64,000 bases of DNA from Acidobacteriota bacterium. GTDB lineage: Bacteria > Acidobacteriota > Blastocatellia > Pyrinomonadales > Pyrinomonadaceae. Location of the stretch: assembly GCA_019639235.1 (NCBI GenBank), contig JAHBSG010000003.1, forward strand, positions 2,446 to 66,445. Reading direction: 5' to 3'. Of this stretch, positions 5,176 through 36,750 are shown piece after piece (within the stretch, counting starts at the first letter, position 1; each line of letters begins with the position of its first letter). A model generated the notes under the pieces. That model worked only from the letters and a program-made list of their open reading frames with translations, did no database searches and was not told the origin of the DNA. The translations under genes were made by a program, and so were the position numbers.

Positions 5176-5481
5176 ATGATCGCGTCAAGGCCAATGGACA
5201 CCAAAAAGCAGAAACTAATCTCCGCCCACGCCCATGAGCATGATCGCTCAGCTAAGTGGAAGCTCTCGCGTTGGCGTAAAGTTGCTCACGCCGCATTCAC
5301 TCTTAGCCTCGCCCTTTTCTTGGCCGGAACGGCGATATCGGTTCTTACAGCCGCTTCCGTCCTTGAAGGCGGTGTCGCCGAGGCAAGTTTGACGGTCAGT
5401 TTCCTTCTTCTATCGCTCGCATGCTCCTTCATCGGAGCACATGCGCTCGACCGCATCGACGAGATCCTGCGGAAACTCTAG
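5176..5481 (+). CDS. Small hypothetical membrane protein (2 predicted TM)
   Basis: Only the ORF and two hydrophobic stretches; no recognisable family. Confidence 0.35.
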   Translation: MIASRPMDTKKQKLISAHAHEHDRSAKWKLSRWRKVAHAAFTLSLALFLAGTAISVLTAASVLEGGVAEASLTVSFLLLSLACSFIGAHALDRIDEILRKL

Positions 5482-23116: not shown

Positions 23117-23428
23117 ATTTCTCTCCGGTCTTTGCAGTGGCTCTGCACGATCCGTCTTGCCGCTTTCTGTCATTGGCTCGTTGACAGATTTTGTCACTTC
23201 AGCCGAATTCGGAGCTTCGGGCGGCAAAGCTCTCTTACTTGCCAAAGCCCTTTGTGAACTTGATTTTAGGCTCGCACCGCCGCGAATCCAAGTCCGACTG
23301 ACCTGCTTTCCGGCTGGCACTGTAATTGCTGTTGAATCTCCTTCGCCAGTGGGTTTACCAACTCCGGTACCCGGCCTCCCAAGACCGCACCGCTCGTTAT
23401 TCCGCTTCAAATTTGGCACTAGAGGCTT

Positions 23429-25936
23429 ATGATCTTAGAACAAGAACCCGCAGTCGCTTCAAACTCCGTTACTGAAGAATCGCCTTTCGTTAGTTCGCCG
23501 GGCGACCTGTTTTCCGAGTCCGAGGATTACCTACGCCAGGGCATTCGGAACGCGCAGGCCGGCAATCGGAACGATGCCCGCGTAGCACTTCTCCGCTCGG
23601 TCGAACTCAATCCCGGCTCCGAGAATGCTTGGCTCTGGCTCGCTTCGATCAGCGAATACCCCGAGGAACTTCTAGGCTTTCTGAACCACGTCCTTGAGAT
23701 CAATCCGGCAAACCAGCGCGCCCTCGAATGGCGCTCGGCGACTAACGCCTTGCTTGCAAAGACGTTTCTTCAGCGTGGACACGAAGCGGTCGAACAAGGA
23801 ATGACAGAGCAGGCTTCGGATATGTTTTCCAAGGCCCTCGAGCACGACCAGAACTGTGCCGCGGCATGGCTCAACCTGGCAAACCTTGCCGATTCCAACG
23901 AAGGCAAGCTCCTTTATCTTGAGAAAGCTCTGGCTATCGATCCCGATAACGTTGAGGCCCGTGCCGCCTTTGCCGATGTCCGGAAGTCGATGACGTCCGG
24001 TTATCTTGAAGAAGCGAAAGCCGCTGCCGTTGCCGGCCGCGTCGCCGATGCCAACGAACTTCTCGACGCCGTTCTTGAAGAAATGCCGGATTCCGAAGAT
24101 GCCTGGATGCTCCGCTCGCACTTTGCCGCCGGTTTCGAAGACAAGATCGCCGCGTTCCAACGCGTGCTTGAGATAAATCCGGAGAACGTCGCCGCCCGTG
24201 TCGGGCTCGAATCGCTCCGTTCCCTGCTTCCGAGCGTTCCCGTTGCCGAACCGGCAGTCAGCGAACCGGTCTTGGAGGTCGAAGCTCCGGCAGAAGAGGC
24301 AGTTCGCGAAGAAGAGCCCGAGATGTCCGTCTCGCTCCAGAGCGGCCTGCTTGAAGCTCCGGTAGTTGAGGACAAGAGCCCGACCGAAGATCTGGAAATG
24401 CCCGAAGGCGTCGCCGAGGCATTTGAGGCTGCCAGCGAAGTACCCGTCGCGGAAGTTAGCGAAGAACCGGTCGCCGAATTCAACGAACCCGCAGAGGAAG
24501 TTGCGGAACCGCAGGCTTATTTCGAAGAACCGGCCGAAACTTTCTTCCCGGTCGAAGAAGCGGTTACCGAAGAGGTCCCCAATTACGAAGCACCACAGGA
24601 AACCGTAGAGGAAGAAGTGATCGAACAGCCTGAGGCATTGTTCGAACCTCAGCCGACGGAAGAATATATCGAGCAGCCGCCGATGGCGTCCGAGCTGTCG
24701 TTCGTCGAGGCCGCCGATGATGAGTCGATCGACGAGGTCCGCTATGACGCCCCGATCGCTCCGCCCACCGAAGAACACGTTTTCGAGCCGCAGGCCGAGG
24801 AGCCGAATCCCTTTGCGACGAGGGTCGAAACGAATGGCTCTTTCGATCCGTTCTCGACCATCGCGGCAATGCCGCATGAAGTTTTTGACGCCGCCCGCGG
24901 CTTCATCGCTCCTGAACCCGTTGCCGAAGTAGCTCAGCCCGAGGAAAACGAAACACCGGCTCAGCCGTTTCTCGATGTAGCATCGGATCCGGCGCCGGAC
25001 TTCGGTTCGATGACAATGTTCACCTCCGCCGCCGATCCATTCTCGGCGGTCGCACCGAGCTTTGGCGATGAGATCCCCCGGCCCGAGACCTCCCCGGCCG
25101 AGCATCAGGCCGCCTCAACCGTTGACGATCGCTCGCAGAACGGCCACCAGCATGTCGAGACCCATCGCCCGTGCCCGTTCTGCACGACCGAGAACGACGT
25201 CTTCTCCGTCGTTTGCGGAAACTGCTTTGCGGTGCTTTCGCTCTCCGATATCGAGATGCTTCTCGCTAACCAGAGTGCCGAGCAATGGGTAATCCGCCAG
25301 TCGCTCATTGCACTTGAAGGCGAGCGAAGCCAGCGACATCTCAACGAGGTCGAGCTCACCAATCTTGGCATCGGCTACATCAATCTCCGCGAGTTTGATA
25401 AGGGCTACTTCTATCTGGTCGAGGCCGCACAGGCCAATCCTGATAACGTTGTCCTCTCAAGCCACGTCAATTCGCTCCACATCCGCATCGAAGAGATCAA
25501 ACAGAAGCTCGGCAACGATGGTGCAAAGGTCAGCGGCAAGACGATCCTCGTCGTTGACGACAGCCCGACCATCCGCAAGCTGATCAGCGGCAAGCTCGAA
25601 AAGAGCGGCCACGAGGTCTTCTGTGCGTCCGATGGCGTCGAGGCTCTCGAGATGCTCAAGGCACTCGAACCGGACCTCATTCTCCTTGATATCACAATGC
25701 CGCGGATGGACGGCTACCAGGTCTGCAAAACGATCAAGAGTGCCCCGGAAACCAAGGACATCCCGGTCGTTATGATCTCCGGAAAGGACGGATTTTTTGA
25801 TAAGGTCCGCGGCCGGATGGCCGGCACATCAGGCTATATCACCAAGCCCTTCGGCCCCGAGACGCTTATGAAGGTGGTCGAAGGCTACCTTGCCGGCGAT
25901 GCCGAGGCCGCAGAAATGGAAGAGTATGCACAATGA
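23429..25936 (+). CDS. TPR - acidic disordered region - zinc ribbon - TPR - receiver domain protein (PilG/CheY-like output)
   Basis: 835 aa. N-terminal TPRs; roughly 300 aa E/P/A-rich; 'CPFCTTENDVFSVVCGNCF'; C-terminal REC 'ILVVDDSPTIRK...LILLDITMPRMDG...KPF'. Confidence 0.85.
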   Translation: MILEQEPAVASNSVTEESPFVSSPGDLFSESEDYLRQGIRNAQAGNRNDARVALLRSVELNPGSENAWLWLASISEYPEELLGFLNHVLEINPANQRALEWRSATNALLAKTFLQRGHEAVEQGMTEQASDMFSKALEHDQNCAAAWLNLANLADSNEGKLLYLEKALAIDPDNVEARAAFADVRKSMTSGYLEEAKAAAVAGRVADANELLDAVLEEMPDSEDAWMLRSHFAAGFEDKIAAFQRVLEINPENVAARVGLESLRSLLPSVPVAEPAVSEPVLEVEAPAEEAVREEEPEMSVSLQSGLLEAPVVEDKSPTEDLEMPEGVAEAFEAASEVPVAEVSEEPVAEFNEPAEEVAEPQAYFEEPAETFFPVEEAVTEEVPNYEAPQETVEEEVIEQPEALFEPQPTEEYIEQPPMASELSFVEAADDESIDEVRYDAPIAPPTEEHVFEPQAEEPNPFATRVETNGSFDPFSTIAAMPHEVFDAARGFIAPEPVAEVAQPEENETPAQPFLDVASDPAPDFGSMTMFTSAADPFSAVAPSFGDEIPRPETSPAEHQAASTVDDRSQNGHQHVETHRPCPFCTTENDVFSVVCGNCFAVLSLSDIEMLLANQSAEQWVIRQSLIALEGERSQRHLNEVELTNLGIGYINLREFDKGYFYLVEAAQANPDNVVLSSHVNSLHIRIEEIKQKLGNDGAKVSGKTILVVDDSPTIRKLISGKLEKSGHEVFCASDGVEALEMLKALEPDLILLDITMPRMDGYQVCKTIKSAPETKDIPVVMISGKDGFFDKVRGRMAGTSGYITKPFGPETLMKVVEGYLAGDAEAAEMEEYAQ

Positions 25937-26457
25937 CCCTCGAAACCGTTTCAATTTCCCCCGAACGGCATGAGGCAGCCTCACATCCTGTAAGCGACCC
26001 GACAAAGCCGGCGGCCAGCTCCCTTTCAAGGTTCCTTTCGTTCGTCATCGGCGGCGGCAGATACTGCGTGCCGGCTGATGCCGTCGTCGAGGTCTCTCAT
26101 CCGCTTGACCTGGCCCGGCTGCCAAAGTCGCCTGCAGATGTGCTAGGCGTTGCCTCGTTCACCGGCGAGATCGCTCTCGTCGTCGATCTTCGTTCCTTGC
26201 TTAGCGAATCGCGGCCCGGCCCCGAAAGCAAACCGAAAATGCTTCGGCTCGCCGCCGTTGGTGAAGAAACCAACATCGCCTTTCCGGTCGATGCCGTCGG
26301 CGAGGTCTTCTCGGCCGATGCGGCGTCGTTCGTACCCGCAGGCGGCGGCAAGCTCGTTGCCGGTACATTCTCCGGCGGCTCGCCTCAGGCCGTCTCATTG
26401 CTCCTGCCGAATGCGATCCGTTCGATCGTTGATCCACGTTCCGCCTCACTCTCTTGA
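25933..26457 (+). CDS. cheW: CheW-like coupling protein
   Basis: 'FLSFVIGGGRYCVPADAVVEV...LPKSPADVLGVASFTGEIALVVDLRSLL'. ATGA overlap with the upstream gene. Confidence 0.85.
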   Translation: MTLETVSISPERHEAASHPVSDPTKPAASSLSRFLSFVIGGGRYCVPADAVVEVSHPLDLARLPKSPADVLGVASFTGEIALVVDLRSLLSESRPGPESKPKMLRLAAVGEETNIAFPVDAVGEVFSADAASFVPAGGGKLVAGTFSGGSPQAVSLLLPNAIRSIVDPRSASLS

Positions 26458-26460
26458 TCG

Positions 26461-28089
26461 ATGAACCGCCCAACCTCAGAACCAGCCGCCTCGAGTCTCC
26501 GCAACCGCATTTGGCTTGCGGTTTGCATTCTTGCGGCTCTCAATGCGGTCGTCGGGTTGATCGGATTCGCTGCAGCGACCTACATTTTCTCTTCGTTCGA
26601 GATACCGTTCATCGCGGCGATCGTCGTCGGAGCCGCCGTCACCGCCGCTTACGGCAGATGGCTTGCCGATGACGCGATCCAGCCGGTCGAAAAGACACTT
26701 CTCGCCTCAAAGAGCCTCGAGCGCAACCCGAACGGCGACATTCCGGGCGCGACCGGTGCCGCCGAAACTGACGAGATCCTGGCCAGCATCAAACGCAACG
26801 GCCACCAGCTTCGCAACTTGATAAAGCTGATGGAGGACGTCGCAAGCGGCAACACCAATGCGGCCCTCGAACCTTTCGAGTATTCAGACCGCGTAACCGC
26901 CTCGGCACAGAAACTCATCGCGAAAGTGACCGGCTCGGTCGATGCCGGCGGCGAGCTTGAGGAACTTCGCACCGCGATCCAAAGGCTCTCAAAGGACCTT
27001 TCACCGGCGGTCAGCGGCTCGCCCGTGCCCGAGGTCGCCGCCTCCGGCCCGCTTGCCGAGGTCGCCCGCCCGGTCAATGCACTTCGCCTGCAGCTTGAAG
27101 AAAGCCGCCGCGAACTCGCCGGTGCGATCACCGCTTCCGAGAACCTTGCTTCCCAGCTCGCTGAAAGGACATCAACTGCCCGCGGCCGCTCCGCTGCCGG
27201 CAAGGGCGTCCTCGATGAAAGCATCGCCCGGCTCCGCTCGCCGCTTACGCCACGTCCCGAGCTAGATGAATCGCTGACAATACTCCGGGCAATGTCGGGC
27301 GACCCGAAGATTCTCGAACTTGGCCGTAACTCGACCAGCGGCCTCAAGGCGGGAGTCGATGGCCTCGGGCTCCACGTCGGCGAGTTGCACCGGACGATCC
27401 GCGAACTTCGCGAGAATTCGCTCTCGATCCAGAACCTCGCCCGCCAGAGTGACGAATTTGCCCGCAAGCTGAAGCTGATCGCTCTCAATGCCAGCGTCGG
27501 CGGCGGCAAGGCCAATTCCCAGTCGGTCGCCGATGAGCTGATCGAGATGGCAGAAAAGATCGGCCGTTTCTCTATCGAAAGCGGCAACGCCCTTCGCGTC
27601 CATGCCGAACGGATCACCGAGAGCGATTCCCTCCTCCAGCGGATCGAGACCGGTGCCGCCTCGCTCGGTGAGGAAGCCCGCGAGTTCTCCGAGGTCGCCG
27701 CCTCCGTCGCTCCGCTTCTGTCCGTCACCGCAAGGCTTCCCGAAATAATTACGTCGCTCGTCGCAGAACGCTCGGCCGAACGCAGTGATCTGCTCAAGCG
27801 GCTGACCGCCCTTCATTTCGAGCTCGCCGGGCTCGTCGGCGAACTCGATTCGGTCGATTCGAGCATTCGCGAAAGCCGGTCGGCGATACTCAGGTCGAGA
27901 CAGCAGATCGCCGAAAAGTCCCCTGCACCGGCTCCGATCCCTGCGGAACCGCCCGCTGCTGAACCTGAGATCGAACCCGACGAATACAACGGCCCGCACC
28001 GCGAAAGCCTTCCTTCGACCGATTTTGAGGACCCGCTATCACCGGCCGATATGCTCGAGATACCGCAGGAAAACGCCCTCGTCCAATGA
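26461..28089 (+). CDS. Atypical methyl-accepting chemotaxis-like protein (TM hairpin, no periplasmic domain)
   Basis: Two adjacent TM helices and a long coiled coil. Degenerate tip motif 'LKLIALNASVGGGKANSQSVADELIEMAEKI'. Confidence 0.7.
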   Translation: MNRPTSEPAASSLRNRIWLAVCILAALNAVVGLIGFAAATYIFSSFEIPFIAAIVVGAAVTAAYGRWLADDAIQPVEKTLLASKSLERNPNGDIPGATGAAETDEILASIKRNGHQLRNLIKLMEDVASGNTNAALEPFEYSDRVTASAQKLIAKVTGSVDAGGELEELRTAIQRLSKDLSPAVSGSPVPEVAASGPLAEVARPVNALRLQLEESRRELAGAITASENLASQLAERTSTARGRSAAGKGVLDESIARLRSPLTPRPELDESLTILRAMSGDPKILELGRNSTSGLKAGVDGLGLHVGELHRTIRELRENSLSIQNLARQSDEFARKLKLIALNASVGGGKANSQSVADELIEMAEKIGRFSIESGNALRVHAERITESDSLLQRIETGAASLGEEAREFSEVAASVAPLLSVTARLPEIITSLVAERSAERSDLLKRLTALHFELAGLVGELDSVDSSIRESRSAILRSRQQIAEKSPAPAPIPAEPPAAEPEIEPDEYNGPHRESLPSTDFEDPLSPADMLEIPQENALVQ

Positions 28090-29609
28090 ACTCATCATTC
28101 GGAAAATTGATCGTCAGGTCGCTCGCCTTCATCGGCGGCGGCCTCTTGCTGCTTGGCATTGTGCTCGTCATGCTTGCCAAGGCCGGAGCGATCGCCGATG
28201 GCCCGGTCGTGCTGATGTCGCTAACTCTCGGCTCGGCGATCACCATCGCGGCCCTCGTTATGCTTACGATGCAGGACCGCGAGAACGCACGCCGCTTTGC
28301 CTCGGCCGCCGCGGCGGCTGCGGACATCGCCGAAGGCAGGCCTGCCGGCTTTGAAGCCGACGACGAACTTAAGACCTCGCTCCGCTCGATCGGCAACTAC
28401 CTTTCTCAGAACGCCAAGGCCCTCGAGGCCCTTGCCCGCGACGGCCGTCTGGGCGGCTTCTCGCCCGCCGGCCAGGACGACCGGCTTGGCAACGCCATCG
28501 CCGCCCTCGCGACGAGATTTTCGGCCAACGACCAGAACGACGAAGCGTTCGCTCAGCTCGAGCGTGCGCTGCTCCGCCTTTCCGCCGACCTTTCCGGCGT
28601 CGCTTCCGGCGACCTCTCGCTCCGTTCCGAAACGCGGCTTGAGGCGATGGAGGAAGTGACGGCCGCGTTCAATCTCCTGACCGGTAACCTTTCCGCGACC
28701 GTCGGCCGGCTCCGCAAAGCATCCGACACGGCAGTCTCTGTTTCCGGCTCGATCACCGAGGCCGCCGAACACGTTTCCCGCGGGAGCAACGCCCAGGCGT
28801 CGCAGTCCGCACGCACCCGAACGGCCCTTGAGTCGCTCGCCGCCGAGATGCGCCGCATAGCCGCCGCTGCCGAACGCTCGGCCGGCATCGCGACGACCGT
28901 CTTCGGCAATTCACGCTCCGGTGCCGCCTCGGCGAGCAACAATATCGCCGCGACCGAGGCCATCCGCAAGCAGGTCCAGGAAACGGCCAAGCGCGTCAAG
29001 AGGCTCGGCGAACGCTCGCAGGAGATCGGCCAGATCGTCTCGCAGATAGACGACCTCAGCGACCGCACCAGCATCCTTGCCCTCAACGCTTCGCTCCAGA
29101 GAGGCCAGAACGCTCTGCCCACTTCAGTTGGCGGCGGCATCTCGACCGTCGCCGAAGAGATCGAACGGCTTGCCGACCGCTCGACGCGGCTGACCCAGCA
29201 GATCGCCTCGATGACGCAGGCGATCAACCTCGAGACCAAGGAACTCGTCACATCGATGGAGGAGACCGTCCGCCAGGTTTCGCTCGGTTCAGTCTCCGCC
29301 GAGCGTTCGGCCCGCTCGCTCTTCGACATCGAAAAGAGCACGCAGGAACTCACCTCGCTTCTTTCCGAACTCCTTACGGCAACCCGCGGACAAACGGCTA
29401 ATGCCGAATCCGCCGCCGCCTCGATGAAAGAGATCGCCGAGGTCGCCGACCTTGTCCGTATGAGCTCGGCCCAGTTCTCCGATCAGCTCGGCCACCTCGC
29501 CCGCTCGGTCTCAGATGTGCAACTCGCCGTTTCTCCTTTCAAGCTTCCCGCGCCTGAGGCCCGCCGAGAGGCACCGCAGCCCGCTCAGGACAACCGCTTT
29601 GTGAACTAA
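28086..29609 (+). CDS. Atypical methyl-accepting chemotaxis protein (TM hairpin, HAMP-like, signalling domain)
   Basis: Tip motif 'SILALNASLQRGQNALPTSVGGGISTVAEEIERLADRS'. ATGA overlap with the upstream MCP. Confidence 0.8.
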   Translation: MNSSFGKLIVRSLAFIGGGLLLLGIVLVMLAKAGAIADGPVVLMSLTLGSAITIAALVMLTMQDRENARRFASAAAAAADIAEGRPAGFEADDELKTSLRSIGNYLSQNAKALEALARDGRLGGFSPAGQDDRLGNAIAALATRFSANDQNDEAFAQLERALLRLSADLSGVASGDLSLRSETRLEAMEEVTAAFNLLTGNLSATVGRLRKASDTAVSVSGSITEAAEHVSRGSNAQASQSARTRTALESLAAEMRRIAAAAERSAGIATTVFGNSRSGAASASNNIAATEAIRKQVQETAKRVKRLGERSQEIGQIVSQIDDLSDRTSILALNASLQRGQNALPTSVGGGISTVAEEIERLADRSTRLTQQIASMTQAINLETKELVTSMEETVRQVSLGSVSAERSARSLFDIEKSTQELTSLLSELLTATRGQTANAESAAASMKEIAEVADLVRMSSAQFSDQLGHLARSVSDVQLAVSPFKLPAPEARREAPQPAQDNRFVN

Positions 29610-29610
29610 G

Positions 29611-32421
29611 ATGAACGACCGCGAGATACAAATATTTCTTGATGAGGCCGAGATAATTCTCCACGGCATTCGCGGCGGCATCCTCCTTTTCGCTCAGTCT
29701 CCGGCAGACGTGTCTGCCCTCGATGTGCCTTTACGCCGCATCAATGAACTCCGGCACCGCTCCGAACCGCTCGGCCGCCGCGAAGTTGCCGATGCTTGTG
29801 CGAAGGTGAGCGGCAGCCTGACCAGTCTTATCGAAGCGAGCCGCAATGGCCGCGATATCCAGGGAGCCCTCCGCGGAGCTCTCGACGCGGTCGCCGATGT
29901 CGAACTCGCTTTTGCCGGAATTCGGCTTGCGGCCGATGGCCCCGAGCCCGATTTCGATTTTTTGGTCGATACGACCTTCAACCCCAAGTCGCCCGCCGCG
30001 GCAACTGTGCAACCGCCTAGCGGGGCTCCTTCGGTCGAGGACGATTTTTCGCAGTTTGAGATCGACGCAGAACTTCTTGAGGTCTTTGCCGAAGAGGCCG
30101 CTGATCTGCTCTCGAACATTTCCGGAAGCCTCGACGAGTTGAAGGCGAATCCGGACAACAAGGACGCTCTCTGGGAGATCCGGCGCAACGCCCATACATT
30201 CAAGGGCTCGGCAGGGATCGTCGGGCTTAAGCAGCTCAGCGAGTTCGCTCACCGCATCGAGGACCTCCTCGATAAGCTGGCCGAATCCGGCGGAAAGCCG
30301 CGCTCTGGCCTGATCCCGCTTCTCATCGAATCGAACACCTGCCTTCAGGCGATGGTCTCCGGCGAACGCCGCGAGGAAACGGCCGTACTTTCGCAAAAGC
30401 TTTCGGCTGATTTCGATGCGATGCTCGCCGCCATCGAGAACAACGAACCGGACGTCGTCGAGACACCGGCACCGGCCGTCGCCGCCGGGCGAAGAACACC
30501 GATCGAACTCCCGACGCACAAGCTCGCCGAGCCGGTTCCGGTCTATGCCGCACAGCCCGAGGCCGAGAACCCGAGCCGCAATCGCTCGATCGTCCGCGTT
30601 TCGCTCGACAAGCTCGACGAACTCGTCGGCATCGTCCGCGACATGGTCATCAACCGCTCGGCCGTCGAGCAGCGGCTTCTCGAGCTTGACCGCCAGATCG
30701 ACGACCTGCAGAATGCGACCCGCCGCCTGCAGGCGATGAACGGTAAGCTTGAGGTCGACTTCGAAGCCTCGCTGCTCGGTGCAGGGCTTGGCTCGCGGGT
30801 CTCTGCCGACCGCAGTGCGGTTTCCGGAACGCGAAACGGGCTTGGCGATTTCGACGAGCTCGAATACGACCGTTACACAGAGTTTCACCAGGCGATCCGT
30901 GAACTCAGCGAGACCTCGAACGACACCTTCTCGATCAACACCGCACTCGAACAGCTCAAAGGCGACCTCGATGTCCTTTTTGAATCGCAACGTCGGCTGA
31001 TCGATGGCGTTCAGGAACGCGTAATGCGCATCCGCCTGGTCGAGTTCGGCGCATTGCGGACGCGGCTCGAACGTGCCGTCCGCGTTACCTGCGATGAGGA
31101 AGGCAAACGTGCCGAGATCGTTCTCGAAAATCCGCATCTTGAGATCGACACCAAGATCCTCGATTCGCTCATTGAGCCGATGCTCCATCTGCTCAAGAAT
31201 GCCGTCGTTCACGGCATCGAGTTTCCCGAGCTTCGCCGCCTGCTCGGCAAGCCAGAGGCCGGCCGCATAACGGTCAAGCTTGCTCTTGATGAGACACACG
31301 TCGTGCTCACCGTCGCCGATGACGGCGGCGGCATCTCGACCGGTGCGCTAAGGGAAAAGGCGGTCATCGATGGGCTCATGAGCCGCGAACAGGCCGACCG
31401 AATTTCCGACGAAGAGGCTCAGATGCTCATCTTCCGCCCGGGCCTGACGACCTCGCAAAAGCTCAATCTAAATGCCGGACGCGGCGTCGGGATGAGCATC
31501 GTCAAAGAGAGCGTCGAATCGAAGAAAGGCACCATCTCGATGCGGTCAACGCCGCACGCCGGAACTGTTTTCACCATCCGGATGCTGCTTCCGCTGGCGG
31601 TCACCGAGGCACTCATCGTCACCTCGGGCCCCGACGTCTTTGCCGTCCCGCTCAATGCCATCCAGCATATTGTTGAGGTCGAAAAGGACCTCGGGCTCGC
31701 CGCCGAAGGCGAGGGCTCCATCGAGCACGCCGGCAATCGCTTCAAGCCATATTCGCTCGCACACCTTACCGGACTTCCGAACCGCGAAGCACTTGCCAAG
31801 TCGGCAAACGCATTGCTCGTCGAGTGCGGCGATGAACACTTCGCTGTCACGGTCGACTCGGTCGTCCGTACCGAGGAACTGGTCGTCAAACCGCTTGGCC
31901 GCCCGCTCGATCGGATGCCCGGCCTTCTCGGTGTCTCGACCCTCGCAAGCGGCGACGCGATCACAATTCTCGACCTCGATAACCTTCTCCGCGACCGCCC
32001 GGCCGGCAATGAACCCATCGCCGAGCCGCCGCCGGTCGAAAAGCAGCTCGCCGTTCTGATCGTTGACGACAGCCCGAGCGTCCGCCTGCTGACCTCTAAG
32101 GTCGTAAAGAACGCCGGCTGGCTCGCCCTGACCGCAAAGGACGGCCTCGACGCACTCGAATCGCTCCGCGAACTCGAAGACCTGCCTTCCGTCATCCTCA
32201 GCGATATCGAGATGCCGCGTATGGGTGGTTATGACATGATCGCCGCACTCAAGGCCGACGAACGCCTCCGGCACATTCCGGTCATCGTCATCACCTCGCG
32301 CGCCGGCGACAAGCACCGCGCCAAGGCCGAGGAACAAGGCGTCGCCGACTACCTCGTCAAACCCTACAGCGAGTGGGAGCTCATCCAAAAGATCCAAACC
32401 CTAGCCGCAAAAGATAAGTAG
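29611..32421 (+). CDS. cheA: Hybrid CheA/ChpA-like histidine kinase (Hpt, dimerisation, HATPase, CheW-like, C-terminal receiver)
   Basis: Hpt 'EIRRNAHTFKGSAGIVGL', N-box 'LLKNAVVHGIE', G-boxes 'DDGGGIS' and 'GRGVGMSIV', CheW-like 'VFAVPLNAIQHIVE', REC 'VLIVDDSPSVR...ILSDIEMPRMGG...KPY'. Confidence 0.9.
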   Translation: MNDREIQIFLDEAEIILHGIRGGILLFAQSPADVSALDVPLRRINELRHRSEPLGRREVADACAKVSGSLTSLIEASRNGRDIQGALRGALDAVADVELAFAGIRLAADGPEPDFDFLVDTTFNPKSPAAATVQPPSGAPSVEDDFSQFEIDAELLEVFAEEAADLLSNISGSLDELKANPDNKDALWEIRRNAHTFKGSAGIVGLKQLSEFAHRIEDLLDKLAESGGKPRSGLIPLLIESNTCLQAMVSGERREETAVLSQKLSADFDAMLAAIENNEPDVVETPAPAVAAGRRTPIELPTHKLAEPVPVYAAQPEAENPSRNRSIVRVSLDKLDELVGIVRDMVINRSAVEQRLLELDRQIDDLQNATRRLQAMNGKLEVDFEASLLGAGLGSRVSADRSAVSGTRNGLGDFDELEYDRYTEFHQAIRELSETSNDTFSINTALEQLKGDLDVLFESQRRLIDGVQERVMRIRLVEFGALRTRLERAVRVTCDEEGKRAEIVLENPHLEIDTKILDSLIEPMLHLLKNAVVHGIEFPELRRLLGKPEAGRITVKLALDETHVVLTVADDGGGISTGALREKAVIDGLMSREQADRISDEEAQMLIFRPGLTTSQKLNLNAGRGVGMSIVKESVESKKGTISMRSTPHAGTVFTIRMLLPLAVTEALIVTSGPDVFAVPLNAIQHIVEVEKDLGLAAEGEGSIEHAGNRFKPYSLAHLTGLPNREALAKSANALLVECGDEHFAVTVDSVVRTEELVVKPLGRPLDRMPGLLGVSTLASGDAITILDLDNLLRDRPAGNEPIAEPPPVEKQLAVLIVDDSPSVRLLTSKVVKNAGWLALTAKDGLDALESLRELEDLPSVILSDIEMPRMGGYDMIAALKADERLRHIPVIVITSRAGDKHRAKAEEQGVADYLVKPYSEWELIQKIQTLAAKDK

Positions 32422-32748
32422 CAAACTTTTCGCCGCTCGTGTCAGTAGCCCGCCCGTGTCAGAGGCCCGACCGTGAGGGAGGGCTCCATTGCAGAAGCCC
32501 GCACGTCAGTAAGGGCGTTCTTCGAATGATGAATGATGAATGATGAACGATGAATGCAGAAGCCCGCACGTCAGTAAGGGCGGTTCATCCGACTTAGATT
32601 TCGCCCGTCCATCAACCACACAGGCAGAAACCCGACCGGTAAGGAGGGTGCCTCTTAAAGGATGAAGGATGAAGGATGAAGGATGACAACTGAAGGCTGA
32701 AGAATGAATGACGAATGCGGAATTCGCTGCCGAAACTGCCCTCAATGA
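32422..32748. repeat. Mosaic repeat region, left arm: 25-26 nt boxes interleaved with heptamer micro-arrays
   Basis: Boxes at 32460-32484, 32492-32517, 32557-32582 and 32625-32650. 'GAATGAT' x5 at 32524-32558. 7-nt-period array 'GATGAAG...' x9 at 32661-32723. Confidence 0.85.
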
Positions 32749-32970
32749 TTAGGAGGGGTGGCCGCCGCTTCGGCGGACAGAGTGGTAGAACGTTTCGATT
32801 TCCGACTTCAAACGGCCCGCCGGAGTCGTCGAAGACGACGCTGGTGATCTAAACCACGTCGCAAGACGTGGGTCGCGTACCGAGCCACACCCGGAACCGT
32901 CGAAGACGGTGGCATTGGTCGTCGAAATACTTTTAACCACGAAAGAAGAAAAGAAGAAAAGAAGAAAATC
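32749..32970 (-). repeat. Hairpin-rich repeat element, copy A (inverted relative to copy B)
   Basis: Hairpins at 32762-32776, 32825-32839, 32854-32871 and 32896-32910. The reverse complement aligns by eye with 34294-34449 and its terminal module with 35239-35310. Confidence 0.8.
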
Positions 32971-33174
32971 CGGGCCCGACGGCGGAGCCGCTCGCCGTCA
33001 GCGGATCGACGGCAGCGAAGCGGCCGCGTACCTCGTCGCAGTACCTCACCAGTTCTCCAAGACCCGAAAACTCCAGTTTAGATTGGTAACAGTCAGGCGA
33101 GATTTTCATTTACGAATCCAACAATAATTTTCAGTTCGCGTCGAATGATTGCCTCGGAGTCGATGAACACTCTT

Positions 33175-33765
33175 TCACATCGCCGTTTCTCGTTCAGTTG
33201 GACTATAAAACTTGAGAGCAATGATGACCATGCTAAGAAGCAACAAGGCATTGTCAATATGAGCCAACAACTCGATCCTTGGTATTCTTGATAAAGGAAA
33301 CCCAGCACCCGCAATAATCAGCATCACGCCTATCCATGTTGGCACCTTCTTCTTGATCAAGAATAGGACCCCTAGTACCAACCAACTTAACGGAGCGAGT
33401 CCCCCTGGAATAAAAAAGGCGAAAAACGCGGCGGGGCCTGACTTCCCGTTAAACTTGATGGCCGGATCCGAAACAACATTCCTGAAGGCATCATTAAAGA
33501 TCCCGTCAACCCCAAAGTTGTTCCCCGCGAGGCAGCCGTAAACCGCAAGAAAAAAACCCCAAACCGCATACCGTGGATAGTCATCCCGAATTTGTTCAAA
33601 CATTCCTTGGAAGGCAAATATCCAAAACAAAAACGACAATACCTGAAGGGCTCCTGCAGTAGATGTCAACACACCATCGACCCAAAAGAATTGACTTATC
33701 GCTAGCAACGACGGTGCCAGTATCATGGAAACTAACCAAAGCGTTCTCTGTGTTCGCTTGTACAT
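33175..33765 (-). CDS. Hypothetical multi-pass membrane protein in an AT-richer island
   Basis: 196 aa ORF with about 6 hydrophobic segments. Composition is visibly more AT-rich than flanking genes. No family recognised. Confidence 0.5.
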   Translation of the reverse strand: MYKRTQRTLWLVSMILAPSLLAISQFFWVDGVLTSTAGALQVLSFLFWIFAFQGMFEQIRDDYPRYAVWGFFLAVYGCLAGNNFGVDGIFNDAFRNVVSDPAIKFNGKSGPAAFFAFFIPGGLAPLSWLVLGVLFLIKKKVPTWIGVMLIIAGAGFPLSRIPRIELLAHIDNALLLLSMVIIALKFYSPTERETAM

Positions 33766-34293
33766 TTTTTTGAGACTCCGAAATACTAATGTTCGGCCTT
33801 GATCCCGTCACCCGCCTTCAAAGAAAACGTTTAGCGGGCCTTATCCGAATGAATCCAAGGATCCAGCTATCGAAGACTGATAACCAACGCTTGCGAGAAT
33901 CCTCAACATGAGAACCGTCCAACGGACATTGGGCGACAAGCCGTTCCAATCACGACCAATCTGTACGGCTGATGAAGTGCAAGCTGTCTAGTAGCACGCG
34001 ACGTCCTTTAACATTCATCCTTGACGCTGTTAGCAGATTGCTGCGCGTCGTTGTATATGTCAGTCACGGTAGTCGTGTCAAGTGGAACCGACCCGATCTC
34101 CGGGTCAAACGGAATCAGGGTGAGACGGGTTTATTGAACATCTCACCGCTGGGAAACACCGCCAACGGTGCCTGAATAGCCGCGACCGGTCTATGTACTT
34201 CGGTTTTTATTCCGTGTTTTTTTGGTTATGGGTCTGATATCCAAAGCCCACAGAAGACACCGACGAGAGCCACAGACGGTTTGCTTGTTTTCT

Positions 34294-34449
34294 GATTTTC
34301 TTCTCCCGTGGTTTGAAAAATCTCATGGTCTGAATGCCACCGTCTCCGACGGTTCCCGTTCAATAGGAGACGCGACCCACGTCTTCCGACGCGGGCTACT
34401 TTAGTGGCGTCGTCTCCGACGACTCCGACGGGCAGCTAAAGCCGGGACC
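34294..34449 (+). repeat. Hairpin-rich repeat element, copy B
   Basis: Hairpins 34339-34353, 34376-34395 and 34409-34423 have the same stems as copy A ('ACCGTC/GACGGT', 'GTCGTC/GACGAC') but different loops. Confidence 0.8.
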
Positions 34450-35418
34450 AGATGAATGCGGAATTCGGGATAGTGTCAGTGGCCCGAACGTGAGGGAGGG
34501 CACGTTTTAGCGGCGAGGGACGAGTGACGGGTGACGAGGGTCGAATTCGGAATGCGGAATCTGGACCTCACCCCTCCGCAACTCTGTAACTCCGCAACTC
34601 TGCAACTTTCAAAACTTCGCAACTTCGAAACTATCCAAAACTTCCATATCATCCATATCTTCCGCCTCTCACGGATCGCCGTTCACTTTGGCTTGGAGTC
34701 CTAAGAGAATGGACGGCGGAGGTTAGTGAATCGTGAATCGTAAAACGTCAATAGTTCTTCGAGCAGAAACTTTGCGGGGCCTTTGCGGCTTTGCGGAAGG
34801 ACGATCTTAACGCAGAGCCCGCAGAGATCGCAGAGGCCGGAAAGAGGTTGCTGGATATTTGTAGCGATCAGCTCTAAGCCATTAGCCGTAAGCTGTTAGC
34901 CGGAAACCAAAGCCCAAATCTCAAAGTCCATTCTTAACCAATTCCCTATGATCCAATTAACAATTGACAATGCGACGATGCCGATCCCAAATCCCAAATC
35001 CGAAATCCCACATCGCAAATCCCCAGGCCCGGCCGCGTGTTCCATCTTTCCCATGCGTCCCATCTGTTCGCGATGTTTCCAATGTTTCTGATGTTTCCGA
35101 TGTTTCCGTTGTTTCCGCTGTTCGCGGTGTTTCCGCGAACGCCCGATGCCCGAAAAAAACAGAACGCCAAGAAATGCGGAATGCAGTGTCGGAGGCTCGC
35201 GCGTCAGCAAGGGCTCATCTTCGAGTTCGGAACTCTCGCAAGCCGGAACACGAAACCGTCTACCACCCCGTCCGCCGAGGCGGCGTCCACCGCTCCTTAT
35301 CAAGGAGGGGAGCTTTCGGAATTCGGAACCGCCGGCCGAAGCCGGGACTCAGAACTCCGAAACTTGGCAACTTCGCAACTCTGGAAACTATTTTCCGTTT
35401 CGGCTACACTTCGGGTAT
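34450..35418. repeat. Mosaic repeat region, right arm: at least 11 degenerate micro-arrays of period 7, 8 or 9 nt plus box copies
   Basis: Examples: 7-mers 34512-34560, 8-mers 'GCAACTCT' 34578-34633, 7-mers 'GTGAATC' 34726-34753, 9-mers 'CGCAGAGNN' 34811-34837, 7-mers 'CCCAAAT' 34986-35020, 9-mers 'TCCGATGTT' x11 35042-35140, 8-mers 35350-35389. Boxes at 34477-34501 and 35190-35214. Confidence 0.85.
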
Positions 35419-36732
35419 ATGCGAGAGCAATTGAAGCGATTCATTGAGCAGATGGACGAGAACTCGGTGGCGGTCATTCCGGCGGCCCACGAGGTTACGC
35501 GGAGCTACGACACGGAGTTCAAGTTTCAGCAGGACCCCGATTTTTATTATCTGACCGGATTTCCTGAGCCGGACGCGATCGCCGTCATCGACCCGAAGAA
35601 CAAGAAATCGCCCTACACGCTTTACGTTAGGCCGCGTGATCCGCTGATGGAGACGTGGTATGGGCGTCGACAGGGCGTCGAGGGAGCGGTCAAGAATTAC
35701 GGGGCCGACCGGGCCTTCTCGATCGAAAAGTTTGCCGCCGACCTGCCGAAGTTGCTCGATGGGCACGACAAGTTGTATTACCGCTTCTCGGTCGATAAGG
35801 CGCTCGACCAGCAGATCTTGCAGTATCTCTCGGGCCAGCGCGTCCGCCGGTTGAAGACCGCTTACCCGCCGCACACCATCATCGACCCGACCATCATCAC
35901 CGGCGAAATGCGGCTTCACAAAACCTCAGACGAGGTCGAACTGATGCAGATCTCGGCCGACATCGCCGCCGAGGCTCACATCCTGGCGATGAAAAAGGTA
36001 AAGCCGGGAATGAACGAAGGCCAGGTCGAGGCGCTAATGGAAGCCTATATGAAGGACAAAGGCGCAAGCGGCGTTGCGTATAACTCGATCGTAGGCGGCG
36101 GCGACAACGCGACCATCCTTCACTACGTTGAGAACAACATGCCGCTTAAGGACGGCGACCTAATCCTCATCGACGCCGGTGCTCAGTATAAAGGCTATGC
36201 CTCGGACATCACGCGGACCTTCCCGGTCAACGGCAAGTTTACGCCGGCACAGCGGGAGGTTTACGACGTCGTGCTCGACGTTCAGCTAAAGTGCATCGAG
36301 GCGACGAAGACCGGAAACACGGTCAAAAAGCGGCAGGAATATTCCATCGACCTTTTGACCGAAGGAATGGTCAAGCTCGGGCTGCTCAAGGGCAAGACGT
36401 CAGAGCTTGTAAAGAAGAAGGCGTACCTTAAATATTATATGCACGGCGTCGGGCATTACCTCGGGCTTGACGTCCACGACGCGGGCCGCTATTTCAGCGA
36501 CCAGGAGGCAAAACATTCGCGGCCGTTCGCTCCGGGAATGGTGCTGACTGTCGAGCCGGGCATCTACGTCCCGCCGGATGACAAGACCGCTCCGGCAAAA
36601 TACCGCGGCATCGGCATCCGCATCGAGGACGACGTTCTCGTGACCGAAAACGGCAACCGTAACCTCACCGCAAAGGTCACGAAAGACCCGGACGAGATCG
36701 AGGCGATAATGCGGAAGCCCGCACGTAAGTAA
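35419..36732 (+). CDS. pepP: Xaa-Pro aminopeptidase (M24B)
   Basis: 'DFYYLTGF', 'LIDAGAQYKGYASDITRTFPV', 'HGVGHYLGLDVHD' and 'TVEPGIY...GIRIEDDVLVT' metal-ligand motifs. Trimmed to 'MREQLKRFIEQ'; the upstream part of the ORF is translated repeat DNA. Confidence 0.9.
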   Translation: MREQLKRFIEQMDENSVAVIPAAHEVTRSYDTEFKFQQDPDFYYLTGFPEPDAIAVIDPKNKKSPYTLYVRPRDPLMETWYGRRQGVEGAVKNYGADRAFSIEKFAADLPKLLDGHDKLYYRFSVDKALDQQILQYLSGQRVRRLKTAYPPHTIIDPTIITGEMRLHKTSDEVELMQISADIAAEAHILAMKKVKPGMNEGQVEALMEAYMKDKGASGVAYNSIVGGGDNATILHYVENNMPLKDGDLILIDAGAQYKGYASDITRTFPVNGKFTPAQREVYDVVLDVQLKCIEATKTGNTVKKRQEYSIDLLTEGMVKLGLLKGKTSELVKKKAYLKYYMHGVGHYLGLDVHDAGRYFSDQEAKHSRPFAPGMVLTVEPGIYVPPDDKTAPAKYRGIGIRIEDDVLVTENGNRNLTAKVTKDPDEIEAIMRKPARK

Positions 36733-36750
36733 GGGCGTATTTACGCAGGT

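What the first reader, a model, noticed from the sequence alone, without database searches (positions are those of the whole stretch)
32749..34449. Inverted pair of hairpin-rich elements of about 160-220 nt brackets an AT-rich 1.3 kb cargo with a lone membrane-protein gene
Seen: the reverse complement of 32749-32970 aligns by eye with 34294-34449. The shared start is 'GATTTTCTTCT', followed by three hairpins with identical stems ('ACCGTC/GACGGT', 'CCACGTC/GACGYGG', 'GTCGTC/GACGAC') but different 3-4 nt loops. The terminal module of copy A ('GAAACGTTCTACCAC..GTCCGCCGAAGCGGCGG..CCTCCTAA') reappears at 35239-35310, about 790 nt beyond copy B. The DNA between the two copies is visibly more AT-rich than the rest of the window. 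It contains only one convincing ORF (33175-33765, minus strand, about 6 TM). Inference: this could be a non-autonomous mobile or recombination cassette, or a pair of structured-RNA genes flanking horizontally acquired DNA. No transposase or integrase is present.
Basis: partly seen in the sequence, partly recalled or inferred. Interest (0 to 1): 0.65.

Follow-up and report, generated by a model that had tools for sequence, protein, structure and literature searches.

The report
Transposase-linked hairpin repeats bracketing foreign DNA
The two hairpin-rich elements are diverged copies of a dispersed acidobacterial repeat (listed in Rfam as the 'Acido-Lenti-1 small RNA') that elsewhere flanks a small IS200-like transposase gene as an inverted pair, whereas here the same kind of pair encloses horizontally acquired DNA instead of the transposase.

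Summary
Copy A (32749-32970, minus) and copy B (34294-34449, plus) are homologous at about 75-81% and share three hairpins. They enclose a low-GC segment with one real gene. The hairpin core is a sub-threshold match to Rfam Acido-Lenti-1.

In related Acidobacteria, matches that pass Rfam's threshold flank 148-150-aa IS200-like Y1 (HUH) transposase genes. They do so as inverted pairs, minus copy left and plus copy right, which is the topology seen in the window. The same repeat also occurs as tight inverted doublets and as many solo copies. The family therefore behaves like REP/RAYT or TIRtron repeats, not like a stand-alone sRNA gene.

The window has no transposase. Between the arms lie:
- an intact membrane-protein gene with about 5-6 hydrophobic segments, whose named relatives are Bacteroidota (Saprospiraceae);
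- a 25-codon relic of an RHS core end that abuts copy A.

Three related contigs show transposase-less pairs with RHS-type or other low-GC cargo. The cassette is present at flanking-level depth in eight metagenome runs, and no empty site was found. The surrounding 3-kb spacer is a mosaic of dispersed repeats and a rearrangement breakpoint. Mobilisation of the pair with its cargo is inferred, not shown.

Verdict: a new variant of a known kind, of moderate interest.

The parts
32433..32715 (+). Repeat mosaic just after the cheA stop. It holds three 'GCCCG..AGGGC' modules (32465-32484, 32497-32516, 32562-32581), short tandem repeats GAATGAT (32524-32556) and AAGGATG (32658-32715), and module 'M' (about 32616-32655, CCACACAGGCAGAAACCCGACCGG..).
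   Evidence: M plus a purine-rich repeat recurs next to elements in L011, L012 and L113. Metagenome depth here is 10-80 times the unique depth.
32733..32808 (-). Terminal module, copy 1. It carries two hairpins, CCGCCGAAGCGGCGG and CCCCTCC..GGAGGGG.
   Evidence: 80% complementary to 35240-35315. Also found in L009 and twice in tandem in L012.
32749..32970 (-). It holds HP3 (32821-32841), HP2 (32854-32878), HP1 (32893-32916) and a pyrimidine-rich 5' module (32924-32970 on the minus strand). It is a diverged Acido-Lenti-1-type X-Y-X' hairpin array.
   Evidence: nhmmer with the family profile hits 32816-32926 on the minus strand at 76 bits, but the profile includes this sequence. No Rfam match at E<=5, because the linker has diverged (TTTAG instead of CTAC).
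32972..33046 (-). A 25-codon relic of an RHS repeat-associated core end (RYCDEVRGRFAAVDPLTASGSAVGP). It reads into the 5' module of copy A.
   Evidence: tblastn against the L009 RHS fragment gives 52% identity and E 7e-5 for the 3.1-kb region. The L009 and L053 fragments match TIGR03696 at 51 and 47 bits (cut-off 32.5). L053 has the same junction with the 5' module.
33175..33765 (-). Cargo gene: a 196-aa membrane protein of an uncharacterised family distantly related to DUF4386. GC is 46.5% and GC3 is 51%.
   Evidence: 95 homologues. The nearest named ones are Saprospiraceae/Bacteroidia at 67-73%. DUF4386 is weak (E 0.0013; 5 of 31 family members match). No relative in the PDB. Composition.
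33766..34177 (.). AT-rich non-coding DNA upstream of the cargo gene. No homologue and no ORF relic were detected.
34178..34293 (+). Conserved inner block next to copy B, with TCTGTGG/CCACAGA inverted motifs.
   Evidence: Aligned with L011, L024, L053, L067 and L073.
34294..34449 (+). Copy B. It holds the 5' module (34294-34320), HP1 (34333-34356), HP2 (34370-34394), HP3 (34407-34427) and HP4 (34428-34448).
   Evidence: Rfam Acido-Lenti-1 hit at 34376-34424 on the plus strand: 30.6 bits, gathering score 37, E 2.5e-4.
34451..35239 (+). The 'extra 790 nt': short tandem repeats (CGGAATK, GCAACTC, ATCCCAA, CGATGTTTC) plus unique-looking sequence. It is itself a dispersed repeat block.
   Evidence: 65-80% identical blocks lie next to elements in L008 (upstream of a GATase gene), L011, L024, L049 and L053. 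Tandem repeats.
35240..35315 (+). Terminal module, copy 2. Synteny between close relatives breaks at this point.
   Evidence: Homology with L101/L102/L111 starts at 35259 and with L110 at 35315. L013 diverges after 35328.

Best explanation
Copies A and B are diverged members of a modular extragenic repeat. Its core is an array of three hairpins (X, Y, X'). The Y-linker-X' part is the Rfam motif Acido-Lenti-1.

In Acidobacteria this repeat is the inverted flanking repeat of a small IS200-like HUH tyrosine (Y1) transposase gene. The protein carries the motifs DHVH, WQ and YIRDQEAHH, which fit 'subclass 1.2' of Quentin et al. 2018. The arrangement parallels REP sequences around RAYT genes and the long inverted repeats of 'TIRtrons'.

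The repeat also exists as tight inverted doublets (REPIN-like) and as many solo copies. The inferred mechanism is that the hairpins form in single-stranded DNA, the Y1 enzyme recognises and cuts them, and the repeats are thereby copied around the genome in trans.

The window holds an inverted pair with the canonical topology: minus copy left, plus copy right, X ends facing inward. Instead of the transposase, the pair encloses about 1.3 kb of foreign low-GC DNA. That DNA holds an intact Bacteroidota-like membrane-protein gene and, abutting copy A, a 25-codon relic of an RHS core end.

The most likely history is a transposase-less pair of this family whose interior was filled or replaced by recombination with RHS-orphan-type and other foreign DNA. 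The arms have since decayed to about 75-81% identity, and the cassette appears fixed in the species.

Shown: family membership, association with the transposase in relatives, topology, foreign cargo, RHS relic.
Inferred: recognition by the enzyme, and past mobility of the pair with its cargo.
For: 1. Family and structure. Every related copy hits Acido-Lenti-1 on the same strand: 30.6 bits for copy B and 23-30 bits in L008-L012. Copies with 5-bp X' stems pass the gathering score at 37-58 bits. On 48 copies both X hairpins covary: 89.9% of cells are paired against 79.2% in shuffles (0 of 500 shuffles reach it), there are 103 both-side changes against 34.5, and the slid controls score at most 0.104 against 0.290.

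2. Transposase link. The roughly 440-nt cores between inverted pairs in L035, L037, L046, L057, L075 and L084 encode 148-150-aa proteins. L021 and L086 hold full-length (150-aa) tblastn matches to them at about 51% identity. The proteins tested match Pfam Y1_Tnp at 83-93 bits and NCBIfam transpos_IS200 at 65-81 bits (cut-off 55). Threshold-passing Acido-Lenti-1 hits sit on both sides of the gene in L075 and on one side in L035.

3. Topology. About 24 of 28 two-copy loci have the minus copy left and the plus copy right, as in the window. A rough census gives about 9 loci with the transposase inside, about 10 doublets, 4 pairs with other cargo and about 30 solo copies.

4. Cargo analogues. L053 (1.35 kb), L024 (2.4 kb, arms about 290 nt at 83-100%) and L049 (4.5 kb) are transposase-less pairs with lower GC inside. 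They contain RHS core-end fragments matching TIGR03696 at 26-51 bits.

5. Window cargo. The RHS relic lies at 33046-32972 (E 7e-5).

6. Only two copies occur in 64 kb, and none in about 100 kb of pepP loci from relatives, so their closeness is not a matter of density.

7. Literature. REP/RAYT and TIRtron/TIRYT systems are described in PMC3733652. Subclass 1.2, with the Y---Q--HH motif and low copy number, is described in PMC6006769.
Against: - No Y1 gene or relic lies in the window. Whether the source genome has one is unknown, because only this 64-kb window of it was held.
- The A and B arms are only about 75-81% identical.
- Copy A lacks the CTAC linker and gets no Rfam hit.
- No empty site, second location or excision junction for the cassette was found. 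It is present in all 8 DNA runs examined.
- The identity matrix of the arm cores is mosaic. It does not show that the two ends were inherited together with those of L053 or L024.
- The transposases fail the NCBIfam RAYT model (25-29 bits against a cut-off of 80). Their motifs also differ from the acidobacterial TIRYT aba1552.
- No biochemical evidence links this enzyme to these hairpins.
- Target-site features were not assessed.
Confidence: 0.7

Rival explanations
1. The elements are genes for trans-acting small RNAs (the Rfam reading of Acido-Lenti-1), transcribed divergently out of the AT-rich segment. The transposase association would be secondary.
For: Rfam and Weinberg et al. 2010 class the motif as a likely non-cis-regulatory RNA with covariation. 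Covariation is confirmed here. REP-type repeats are often transcribed and can act as RNA elements (PMC3733652), so the two readings do not fully exclude each other.
Against: Covariation supports DNA hairpins just as well. The motif flanks Y1 transposase genes as inverted pairs and forms inverted doublets and tandem arrays. On the Rfam strand, A.C/C.A cells (15) outnumber G.U/U.G cells (4), which is the opposite of what an RNA on that strand predicts. Promoter and terminator signals are not above shuffles. Folding z-scores are unremarkable. The only RNA-type runs gave a few tiny contigs and none over the elements.
Confidence: 0.1
2. A and B are two independent solo insertions, or a local duplication, in a repeat-rich junk spacer. 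Their inverted arrangement around the foreign gene is coincidental and there never was a cassette.
For: The 3-kb spacer is packed with unrelated dispersed modules and is a rearrangement breakpoint. Solo copies are the commonest state. The arm cores are mosaic. The arms are only about 75-81% alike.
Against: Only two copies occur in 64 kb, yet they lie 1.3 kb apart in the family's preferred orientation. The same inner landmarks recur in L053 and L024: an RHS core-end relic against the minus copy, and the CACAGA block against the plus copy.
Confidence: 0.15
3. The segment is chiefly a decayed orphan module of an RHS polymorphic-toxin locus. The membrane protein would be an orphan immunity gene followed by the next core-end stub, and the hairpin repeats would be incidental passengers of RHS recombination.
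For: The RHS core-end relic lies directly downstream of the membrane gene on the same strand. L024 and L049 pairs contain RHS core ends that run into unique C-terminal ORFs, followed by small hydrophobic ORFs. A 269-nt RHS piece is 95% identical across three loci, whereas the adjacent repeat regions match at about 77-84% in the same BLAST comparisons.
Against: No toxin-domain relic lies upstream of the membrane gene. The Saprospiraceae homologue sits among housekeeping genes (xseB, lptF/G), not in a toxin locus. No rhs gene lies nearby in the window.
Confidence: 0.1
4. The inverted repeats are sites for a site-specific recombinase, making this an invertible segment or an integron-like cassette.
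For: Inverted repeats bracket a single gene. One contig in run X7 joins 32798 to 35232 on opposite strands.
Against: No recombinase or integrase gene is nearby. That joint has only a 35-nt side inside a multi-copy module. The arms match a transposase-associated family, not attC or inversion sites.
Confidence: 0.02

Closest known systems
Rfam RF01687, Acido-Lenti-1 RNA motif (Weinberg et al. 2010, PMC2864571)
   Same: It has the same two-hairpin core: CCCAC..GGG, a CUAC-type linker, then a second variable hairpin ending in U. It occurs in the same phylum, in multiple copies per genome and in tandem arrays. Relatives of the window copies pass the gathering score.
   Different: The window copies are below threshold (30.6 bits for B, no hit for A). 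They have a 6-bp X' stem, an extra upstream X hairpin, a 5' pyrimidine module, HP4 and a terminal module. The evidence here points to a transposase-associated DNA repeat, not an sRNA gene.
REP / REPIN sequences with RAYT transposases (REPtrons)
   Same: Both are extragenic palindromes, dispersed in many copies and forming inverted doublets. Inverted copies flank a single small Y1 HUH transposase gene. On the complementary strand the Y hairpin reads GTAG followed by a GC-rich palindrome.
   Different: The enzyme is IS200-like (subclass 1.2 motif Y---Q--HH) and fails the RAYT model (25-29 bits against 80). The repeat unit is a three-hairpin array of about 110 nt, not a single 20-40-nt palindrome. 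Copy number appears moderate. The window pair carries cargo and no enzyme.
TIRtrons / TIRYT (Di Nocera et al. 2013, PMC3733652)
   Same: A Y1 transposase gene is flanked by long inverted repeats that also exist as moderately abundant repeat families, often as dimers. An acidobacterial group including Koribacter is described.
   Different: The acidobacterial TIRYT sequences shown there (aba1552 and others) have the RAYT-like Y..NP motif, unlike the YIRDQEAHH proteins here. Whether the Koribacter TIR family equals Acido-Lenti-1 could not be checked.
IS200/IS605 insertion sequences
   Same: The proteins are closest in sequence to this group: NCBIfam transpos_IS200 above cut-off, and the nearest solved structures are 2EC2, 2XM3 and 2A6M at E about 1e-6. 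Both have hairpins next to the gene ends.
   Different: As I recall it, IS200/IS605 ends are not inverted repeats, and their hairpins lie on one strand. Here the flanks are inverted, and the flanking repeat is dispersed far more often without the gene than with it.
Orphan RHS toxin-immunity modules
   Same: A short conserved RHS core-end stub lies next to low-GC variable genes, and such stubs recur in the related cargo pairs.
   Different: No rhs main gene and no toxin domain are in the window. The stub is only 25 codons and is truncated by the repeat.

Membership tests
Rfam Acido-Lenti-1 (RF01687) | Covariance-model score at or above the gathering score (37 bits) | tested here: not met
   Copy B scores 30.6 bits (E 2.5e-4). 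Copy A has no hit at E<=5. Nothing passes gathering in the window.
Rfam Acido-Lenti-1 (RF01687) | Hairpin 1, a conserved CUA-type linker, then hairpin 2 followed by U | tested here: met
   Copy B reads CCCACGUC-UUCC-GACGCGGG CUACUUUAGUGG CGUCGUC-UCC-GACGAC U. In copy A both hairpins are kept but the linker has diverged. Homologous copies in relatives score 37-58 bits.
REP/RAYT system (REPtron) | Inverted copies of the repeat flank a Y1 transposase gene | tested here: inconclusive
   Met in relatives: L035, L037, L046, L057, L075 and L084, with full-length tblastn matches also in L021 and L086. Not met at the window pair, which has no Y1 gene or relic.
REP/RAYT system (REPtron) | Repeat dispersed in many extragenic copies without the gene, including inverted doublets | tested here: met
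   About 30 solo copies and about 10 doublets, against about 9 gene-containing loci among the fetched contigs. There are 3 copies on 3 contigs of MAG ACE_ACI7 and several on the contig set LNFM01. Depth over copy A is 1.4-10 times the unique depth in metagenomes.
REP/RAYT system (REPtron) | Conserved GTAG-type tetranucleotide at one end of the palindrome | tested here: inconclusive
   CTAC follows the Y hairpin (GTAG on the other strand) in copy B and in all relatives found. However, the search pattern required it. Copy A has TTTAG instead.
REP/RAYT system (REPtron) | Transposase belongs to the RAYT protein family | tested here: not met
   NCBIfam REP_Tyr_transpos scores 25-29 bits against a cut-off of 80, whereas transpos_IS200 scores 65-81 against 55. 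The Y motif is YIRDQEAHH.
TnpA-Y1 subclass 1.2 (Quentin et al. 2018) | Y---Q--HH motif, short core, conserved C-terminal extension, low copy number | tested here: inconclusive
   The motif and a conserved C-terminus (..EFDEEYLWK) are present in all six proteins (definition). Copy number per genome was not measurable. No profile of the subclass was available.
IS200/IS605 insertion sequence | Ends without terminal inverted repeats (hairpins on one strand), and the whole gene-bearing unit is what multiplies | tested here: not met
   The flanks are inverted repeats. Most copies of the repeat lack the gene. The definition is from my own knowledge of the family.
MITE / composite transposon | Terminal inverted repeats with target-site duplications and insertion polymorphism | tested here: inconclusive
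   Inverted arms are present. The outer ends are fuzzy, so duplications were not assessed. No empty site exists in relatives: the loci differ by larger rearrangements. The cassette is present in all 8 runs.
RHS orphan toxin-immunity module | RHS core-end fragment followed by a variable toxin tip and an immunity gene | tested here: inconclusive
   A core-end relic is present (E 7e-5). No toxin-tip relic was found. An immunity role for the membrane protein is untested.

The most novel reading that the evidence does not exclude
Transposase-less inverted pairs of Acido-Lenti-1 hairpin arrays could be cargo carriers that a single-copy Y1 (subclass 1.2) enzyme moves in trans. They would amount to REPIN-like elements with a payload. 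In Pyrinomonadaceae they would shuttle RHS toxin-tip and immunity modules and other foreign genes, such as this membrane protein, between loci and genomes. The embedded RHS core-end stub would provide the homology for swapping tips.
Probability: 0.2. Interest if true: 0.8.

Novelty: new variant of a known kind. Interest (0 to 1): 0.55.

Why it matters
Three points would matter if confirmed.

1. It reassigns an Rfam 'small RNA' family of unknown function (Acido-Lenti-1, 2010). The motif becomes the hairpin repeat set of a Y1 HUH transposase, which predicts a DNA-level role. None of the five papers in the searched library that mention the motif is about transposases, judged from their titles, abstract starts and, for Weinberg 2010, the text.

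2. It gives the little-studied TnpA-Y1 'subclass 1.2' a candidate DNA partner. That subclass was described as low-copy, without IS200-type ends, and mostly found in Cyanobacteria and Bacteroidetes. Here it appears in a new phylum with a REPtron-like lifestyle, and the candidate substrate can be tested in vitro.

3. Several pairs, including the one in this window, enclose foreign low-GC genes and RHS fragments instead of the transposase. These repeats may therefore mark, or create, sites where new genes enter Pyrinomonadaceae genomes. They also coincide with synteny breakpoints between close relatives from activated sludge.

For annotation, gene callers extend pepP by 145-196 codons through these repeats (P0097, P0098).

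Tried and rejected
- Rfam at gathering threshold and ARAGORN on the whole window found nothing.
- Single-sequence folds were not better than shuffles.
- The promoter and terminator scan was not above shuffles, so the hairpins are not canonical intrinsic terminators.
- RNA evidence was sought. Two RNA-type metagenome runs gave only a few 150-nt contigs and none over copies A or B, which is unusable.
- An empty site was sought on three routes. pepP relatives give three different upstream arrangements. cheA relatives give a contig that ends in repeats and a 404-nt spacer with other modules. Joints in eight DNA runs involve only short multi-copy modules. No clean empty site emerged.
- The 94% match of L101 4672-4797 to window 32555-32680 was considered as evidence of an alternative allele. 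It was rejected because that module is high-copy.
- No Y1 transposase relic was found in the window by relaxed tblastn.
- An RHS relic near copy B was sought and is not significant.
- I first read the motif TTGCC..GGCATTATA near L008 and L009 as a promoter or operator. It is RHS coding sequence.
- I considered that the two ends might be orthologous with the ends of L053 and L024. The identity matrix is mosaic, so this is not supported.
- The viral contig scan returned only an unrelated coding hit.
- The membrane protein has no solved relative and only weak DUF4386 similarity. Its structure was not predicted.
- attC/integron and invertible-segment readings were rejected for lack of any recombinase.
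- The TIR sequences of Koribacter aba1552 could not be retrieved to compare with Acido-Lenti-1.
Full report
**1. The observation**

- The reverse complement of copy A aligns with copy B over about 165 nt.
- The repeat finder reports arms of 64 nt (81%), 24 nt (96%) and 45 nt (76%). It also pairs the terminal module 32733-32808 with 35240-35315 (76 nt, 80%).
- Each of the three hairpin blocks occurs exactly twice in the 64-kb window, with none expected by chance.
- The interior is low-GC, 0.43-0.51 in 300-nt windows against about 0.60-0.69 in the flanking genes.
- The flanks are an MCP gene, a hybrid CheA-CheW-receiver kinase (29611-32421) and aminopeptidase P (35419-36732).
- Tandem-repeat finding shows that this one 3-kb spacer holds nearly all short tandem repeats of the window.
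- Single-sequence folds are no better than shuffles.

**2. What the hairpin core is**

A permissive Rfam scan gives one meaningful match. Copy B, 34376-34424 on the plus strand, matches Acido-Lenti-1 (RF01687) at 30.6 bits, below the gathering score of 37, with E 2.5e-4. Weinberg et al. 2010 described this motif in Acidobacteria and Lentisphaerae. They called it a probable non-cis-regulatory RNA of unknown function, often in tandem arrays and sometimes near group II introns.

A pattern scan of species-representative genomes found copies only in Acidobacteria MAGs. Every one of them hits the same Rfam model on the same strand at 23-30 bits. pepP and cheA homologue names place the organism in Pyrinomonadaceae (Blastocatellia). 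It comes from activated sludge and wastewater.

A metagenome scan with the conserved Y hairpin plus its CTAC foot returned 83 stretches. In these, the Y hairpin is followed by a linker and a second hairpin whose stem differs freely between copies (GCCCC/GGGGC, GCCGC/GCGGC, GTCCC/GGGAC, GTCGTC/GACGAC and others). It is usually preceded by a similar hairpin.

On an alignment of 48 copies both outer hairpins covary strongly:
- 89.9% of cells are paired against 79.2% in shuffles, and 0 of 500 shuffles reach the observed value.
- There are 103 both-side changes against 34.5 in shuffles.
- The covariation score is 0.290 against 0.109 in shuffles. Slid controls reach at most 0.104.

The Y hairpin is invariant because the search pattern fixed it. 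On the Rfam strand, A.C/C.A cells (15) outnumber G.U/U.G cells (4). This suggests that pairing is better kept on the complementary strand, which reads GTAG followed by a palindrome. The sequences are related to each other, so this is only a hint.

**3. The decisive context**

In loci with two copies, about 24 of 28 pairs have the minus copy on the left and the plus copy on the right, with the X ends facing each other. This is the arrangement in the window.

The pairs fall into three spacing classes:
- adjacent, 0-100 nt apart;
- about 440 nt apart;
- larger.

The 440-nt cores encode 148-150-aa proteins. The proteins tested match Pfam Y1_Tnp at 83-93 bits and NCBIfam transpos_IS200 at 65-81 bits (cut-off 55). 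They match the RAYT model at only 25-29 bits (cut-off 80). Their nearest solved relatives are IS200/IS605 TnpA proteins. Their motifs DHVH, WQ and YIRDQEAHH fit the Y---Q--HH signature of 'subclass 1.2' of Quentin et al. 2018. That subclass was described as low-copy, without IS200-type ends, and mainly in Cyanobacteria and Bacteroidetes.

A gathering-threshold Rfam scan then showed bona fide Acido-Lenti-1 hits:
- on both sides of the gene in L075 (47 and 44.7 bits);
- next to the gene in L035 (49.2 bits);
- as inverted doublets in L045, L055 and L094.

A rough census gives about 9 loci with the gene inside, about 10 doublets, 4 pairs with other cargo and about 30 solo copies. This is the pattern of REP/REPIN sequences with RAYTs, or of the 'TIRtrons' of Di Nocera et al. 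2013. That paper already noted an acidobacterial group of such transposases and a repeated TIR family in Koribacter. The proteins found here differ from those TIRYTs in the Y motif. None of the five papers that mention Acido-Lenti-1 appears to connect it with a transposase, judged from titles and abstract starts.

**4. What lies between the arms in the window**

No Y1 gene or relic is present.

The 196-aa ORF is real. It has 95 homologues. One is 99% identical and comes from the same species in sludge metagenomes. The next are 70-76% identical, and the named ones are Saprospiraceae or Bacteroidia. Its GC is 46.5% (GC3 51%), against 61% (GC3 73%) for cheA and 57.5% (GC3 77%) for pepP. The Saprospiraceae homologue has 41.8% GC and sits among housekeeping genes. 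The family is uncharacterised, with weak DUF4386 similarity and no solved relative. A 76%-identical homologue (L016) lies in a low-GC patch of another 55%-GC genome, near one of the same repeat modules but without the hairpin elements.

Directly inside copy A, 33046-32972 on the minus strand encodes RYCDEVRGRFAAVDPLTASGSAVGP. This is a relic of the RHS repeat-associated core end (E 7e-5 for the 3.1-kb region).

The same RHS piece is longer in related loci. It is 95% identical among L053, L024 and L009, and the L009 and L053 fragments match TIGR03696 at 51 and 47 bits. In L053 it meets the 5' module of the minus copy at the same point as in the window. L053, L024 and L049 are transposase-less pairs of the same topology:
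- L053 encloses 1.35 kb.
- L024 encloses 2.4 kb and has arms of about 290 nt at 83-100% identity.
- L049 encloses 4.5 kb.
All three have lower GC inside and contain RHS core ends, unique C-terminal ORFs and small hydrophobic ORFs.

On the other side, the plus copies of the window, L011, L024, L053, L067 and L073 share an inner block rich in TCTGTGG/CCACAGA. The arm cores themselves are mosaic between loci. I therefore do not claim that the two ends were inherited as a unit.

**5. The neighbourhood**

The 'extra 790 nt' between copy B and the second terminal module is itself a dispersed block. It occurs next to elements at unrelated loci, for example upstream of a GATase gene in L008.

Synteny downstream of pepP is conserved in all relatives. 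Upstream it is not:
- More distant relatives have queE 165-257 nt from pepP, with no repeats.
- Relatives at 93-95% nucleotide identity have an M23/FG-GAP gene there. Their homology with the window begins inside the terminal module, at 35259 or 35315.
- A contig that is 98% identical to 31371-35328 diverges right after the terminal module.
- MAG Ga0074141 shares copy B, the 790-nt block and pepP. It has a TonB-like gene and no copy A where the window has copy A and the membrane gene.

On the cheA side, an 87% (protein identity) relative has a 404-nt spacer with the same GCCCG and M modules and an inverted doublet of the 5' modules, but no hairpins.

The spacer is therefore a hotspot of rearrangement bounded by repeats, and no clean empty site exists. 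In eight DNA metagenome runs the cassette interior is covered at the same depth as unique flanks, by contigs spanning 32880-34650. No credible deletion or inversion joint was seen. The cassette appears fixed.

**6. Interpretation**

The elements are best read as diverged members of a Y1-transposase-associated hairpin repeat family (REP/TIR-like). They are arranged as the family's canonical inverted pair, but they enclose foreign DNA instead of the enzyme. The inferred mechanism is hairpin formation in single-stranded DNA, followed by recognition and cleavage by the Y1 enzyme acting in trans. This rests on the known biochemistry of IS200/IS605 and RAYT enzymes (named from the literature cited) and was not tested here.

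Whether the pair moved with its cargo is open. The alternatives are that a doublet was split by insertion, or that the transposase was replaced by recombination with RHS-type DNA. The recurrence of cargo-bearing pairs makes a carrier role possible, at about 0.2.

The sRNA reading is not excluded as an additional role, but it is disfavoured as the primary one.

Noticed in passing
window 32465-36736: A 20-nt module GCCCGNNCGTSAGNRAGGGC occurs six times (0.15 expected), all on the plus strand and all within 4.3 kb. The last copy (36717-36736) overlaps the pepP stop codon. Metagenome depth over these modules is up to about 80 times the unique depth, so they are a high-copy family in their own right.
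   Followed up: partly
window 35240-35328; L013, L101, L102, L110, L111: The terminal module is the exact point where three near-identical or closely related assemblies switch to different neighbours: pepP, beta-lactamase-like genes, or an M23/FG-GAP gene. This is either repeat-mediated rearrangement or repeat-induced assembly chimeras. One of these contigs (L013) has only 1.5x coverage.
   Followed up: partly
window 34451-35239; L008 6523-7159; L011 1941-2494; L024 169-713; L049 3692-4478: An apparently non-coding block of 600-800 nt, interspersed with 7-9-nt tandem repeats, is conserved at 65-80% at unrelated loci in several Pyrinomonadaceae. It usually lies on the outer side of a hairpin element. 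Its nature is unknown; it could be a larger composite repeat or an RNA.
   Followed up: no
window 35146-35418; proteins P0097 (633 aa) and P0098 (582 aa); L011 46-2214: The pepP reading frame stays open far upstream through the repeats. Gene callers therefore produce N-terminally extended pepP products of 528-722 aa, which is probably an annotation artefact.
   Followed up: no
L113 10845-11247: Downstream of the orthologous cheA, an 87% (protein identity) relative has a long palindrome: module M, a purine-rich repeat and the 5' pyrimidine module, followed by their inverted copies, with no Acido-Lenti-1 hairpins. The '5' module' is therefore an independent repeat that can form its own doublets.
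   Followed up: no
L053 1-6363 versus L061: Two contigs share flanks at 93-98% identity but differ in everything on the inner side of one hairpin element. Homology resumes at L053 5357, about 7 nt inside the profile match to the right element (5350-5452). This is a second example of variable content bounded by this repeat.
   Followed up: partly
L016 1-1560: A 76%-identical homologue of the cargo membrane protein lies in a 1.5-kb low-GC patch of a different 55%-GC genome. It sits 450 nt from a copy of the window's 34613-34729 repeat module, at a contig end, with no hairpin elements on the sequenced side.
   Followed up: partly
window 22875-32421; L112, L113: The operon ending at the finding encodes a receiver/TPR protein, CheW, an unknown protein, an MCP and a hybrid kinase. 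Some sources name homologues of the kinase ChpA (chemosensory pili system). It may therefore be a Pil-Chp-type pathway and not a flagellar chemotaxis pathway.
   Followed up: no
alignment A2 (48 copies): Within one element, the upstream and downstream X hairpins often carry the same stem even though stems differ between elements (for example L065, L069, L054). This suggests unit duplication or a requirement that the two match.
   Followed up: no
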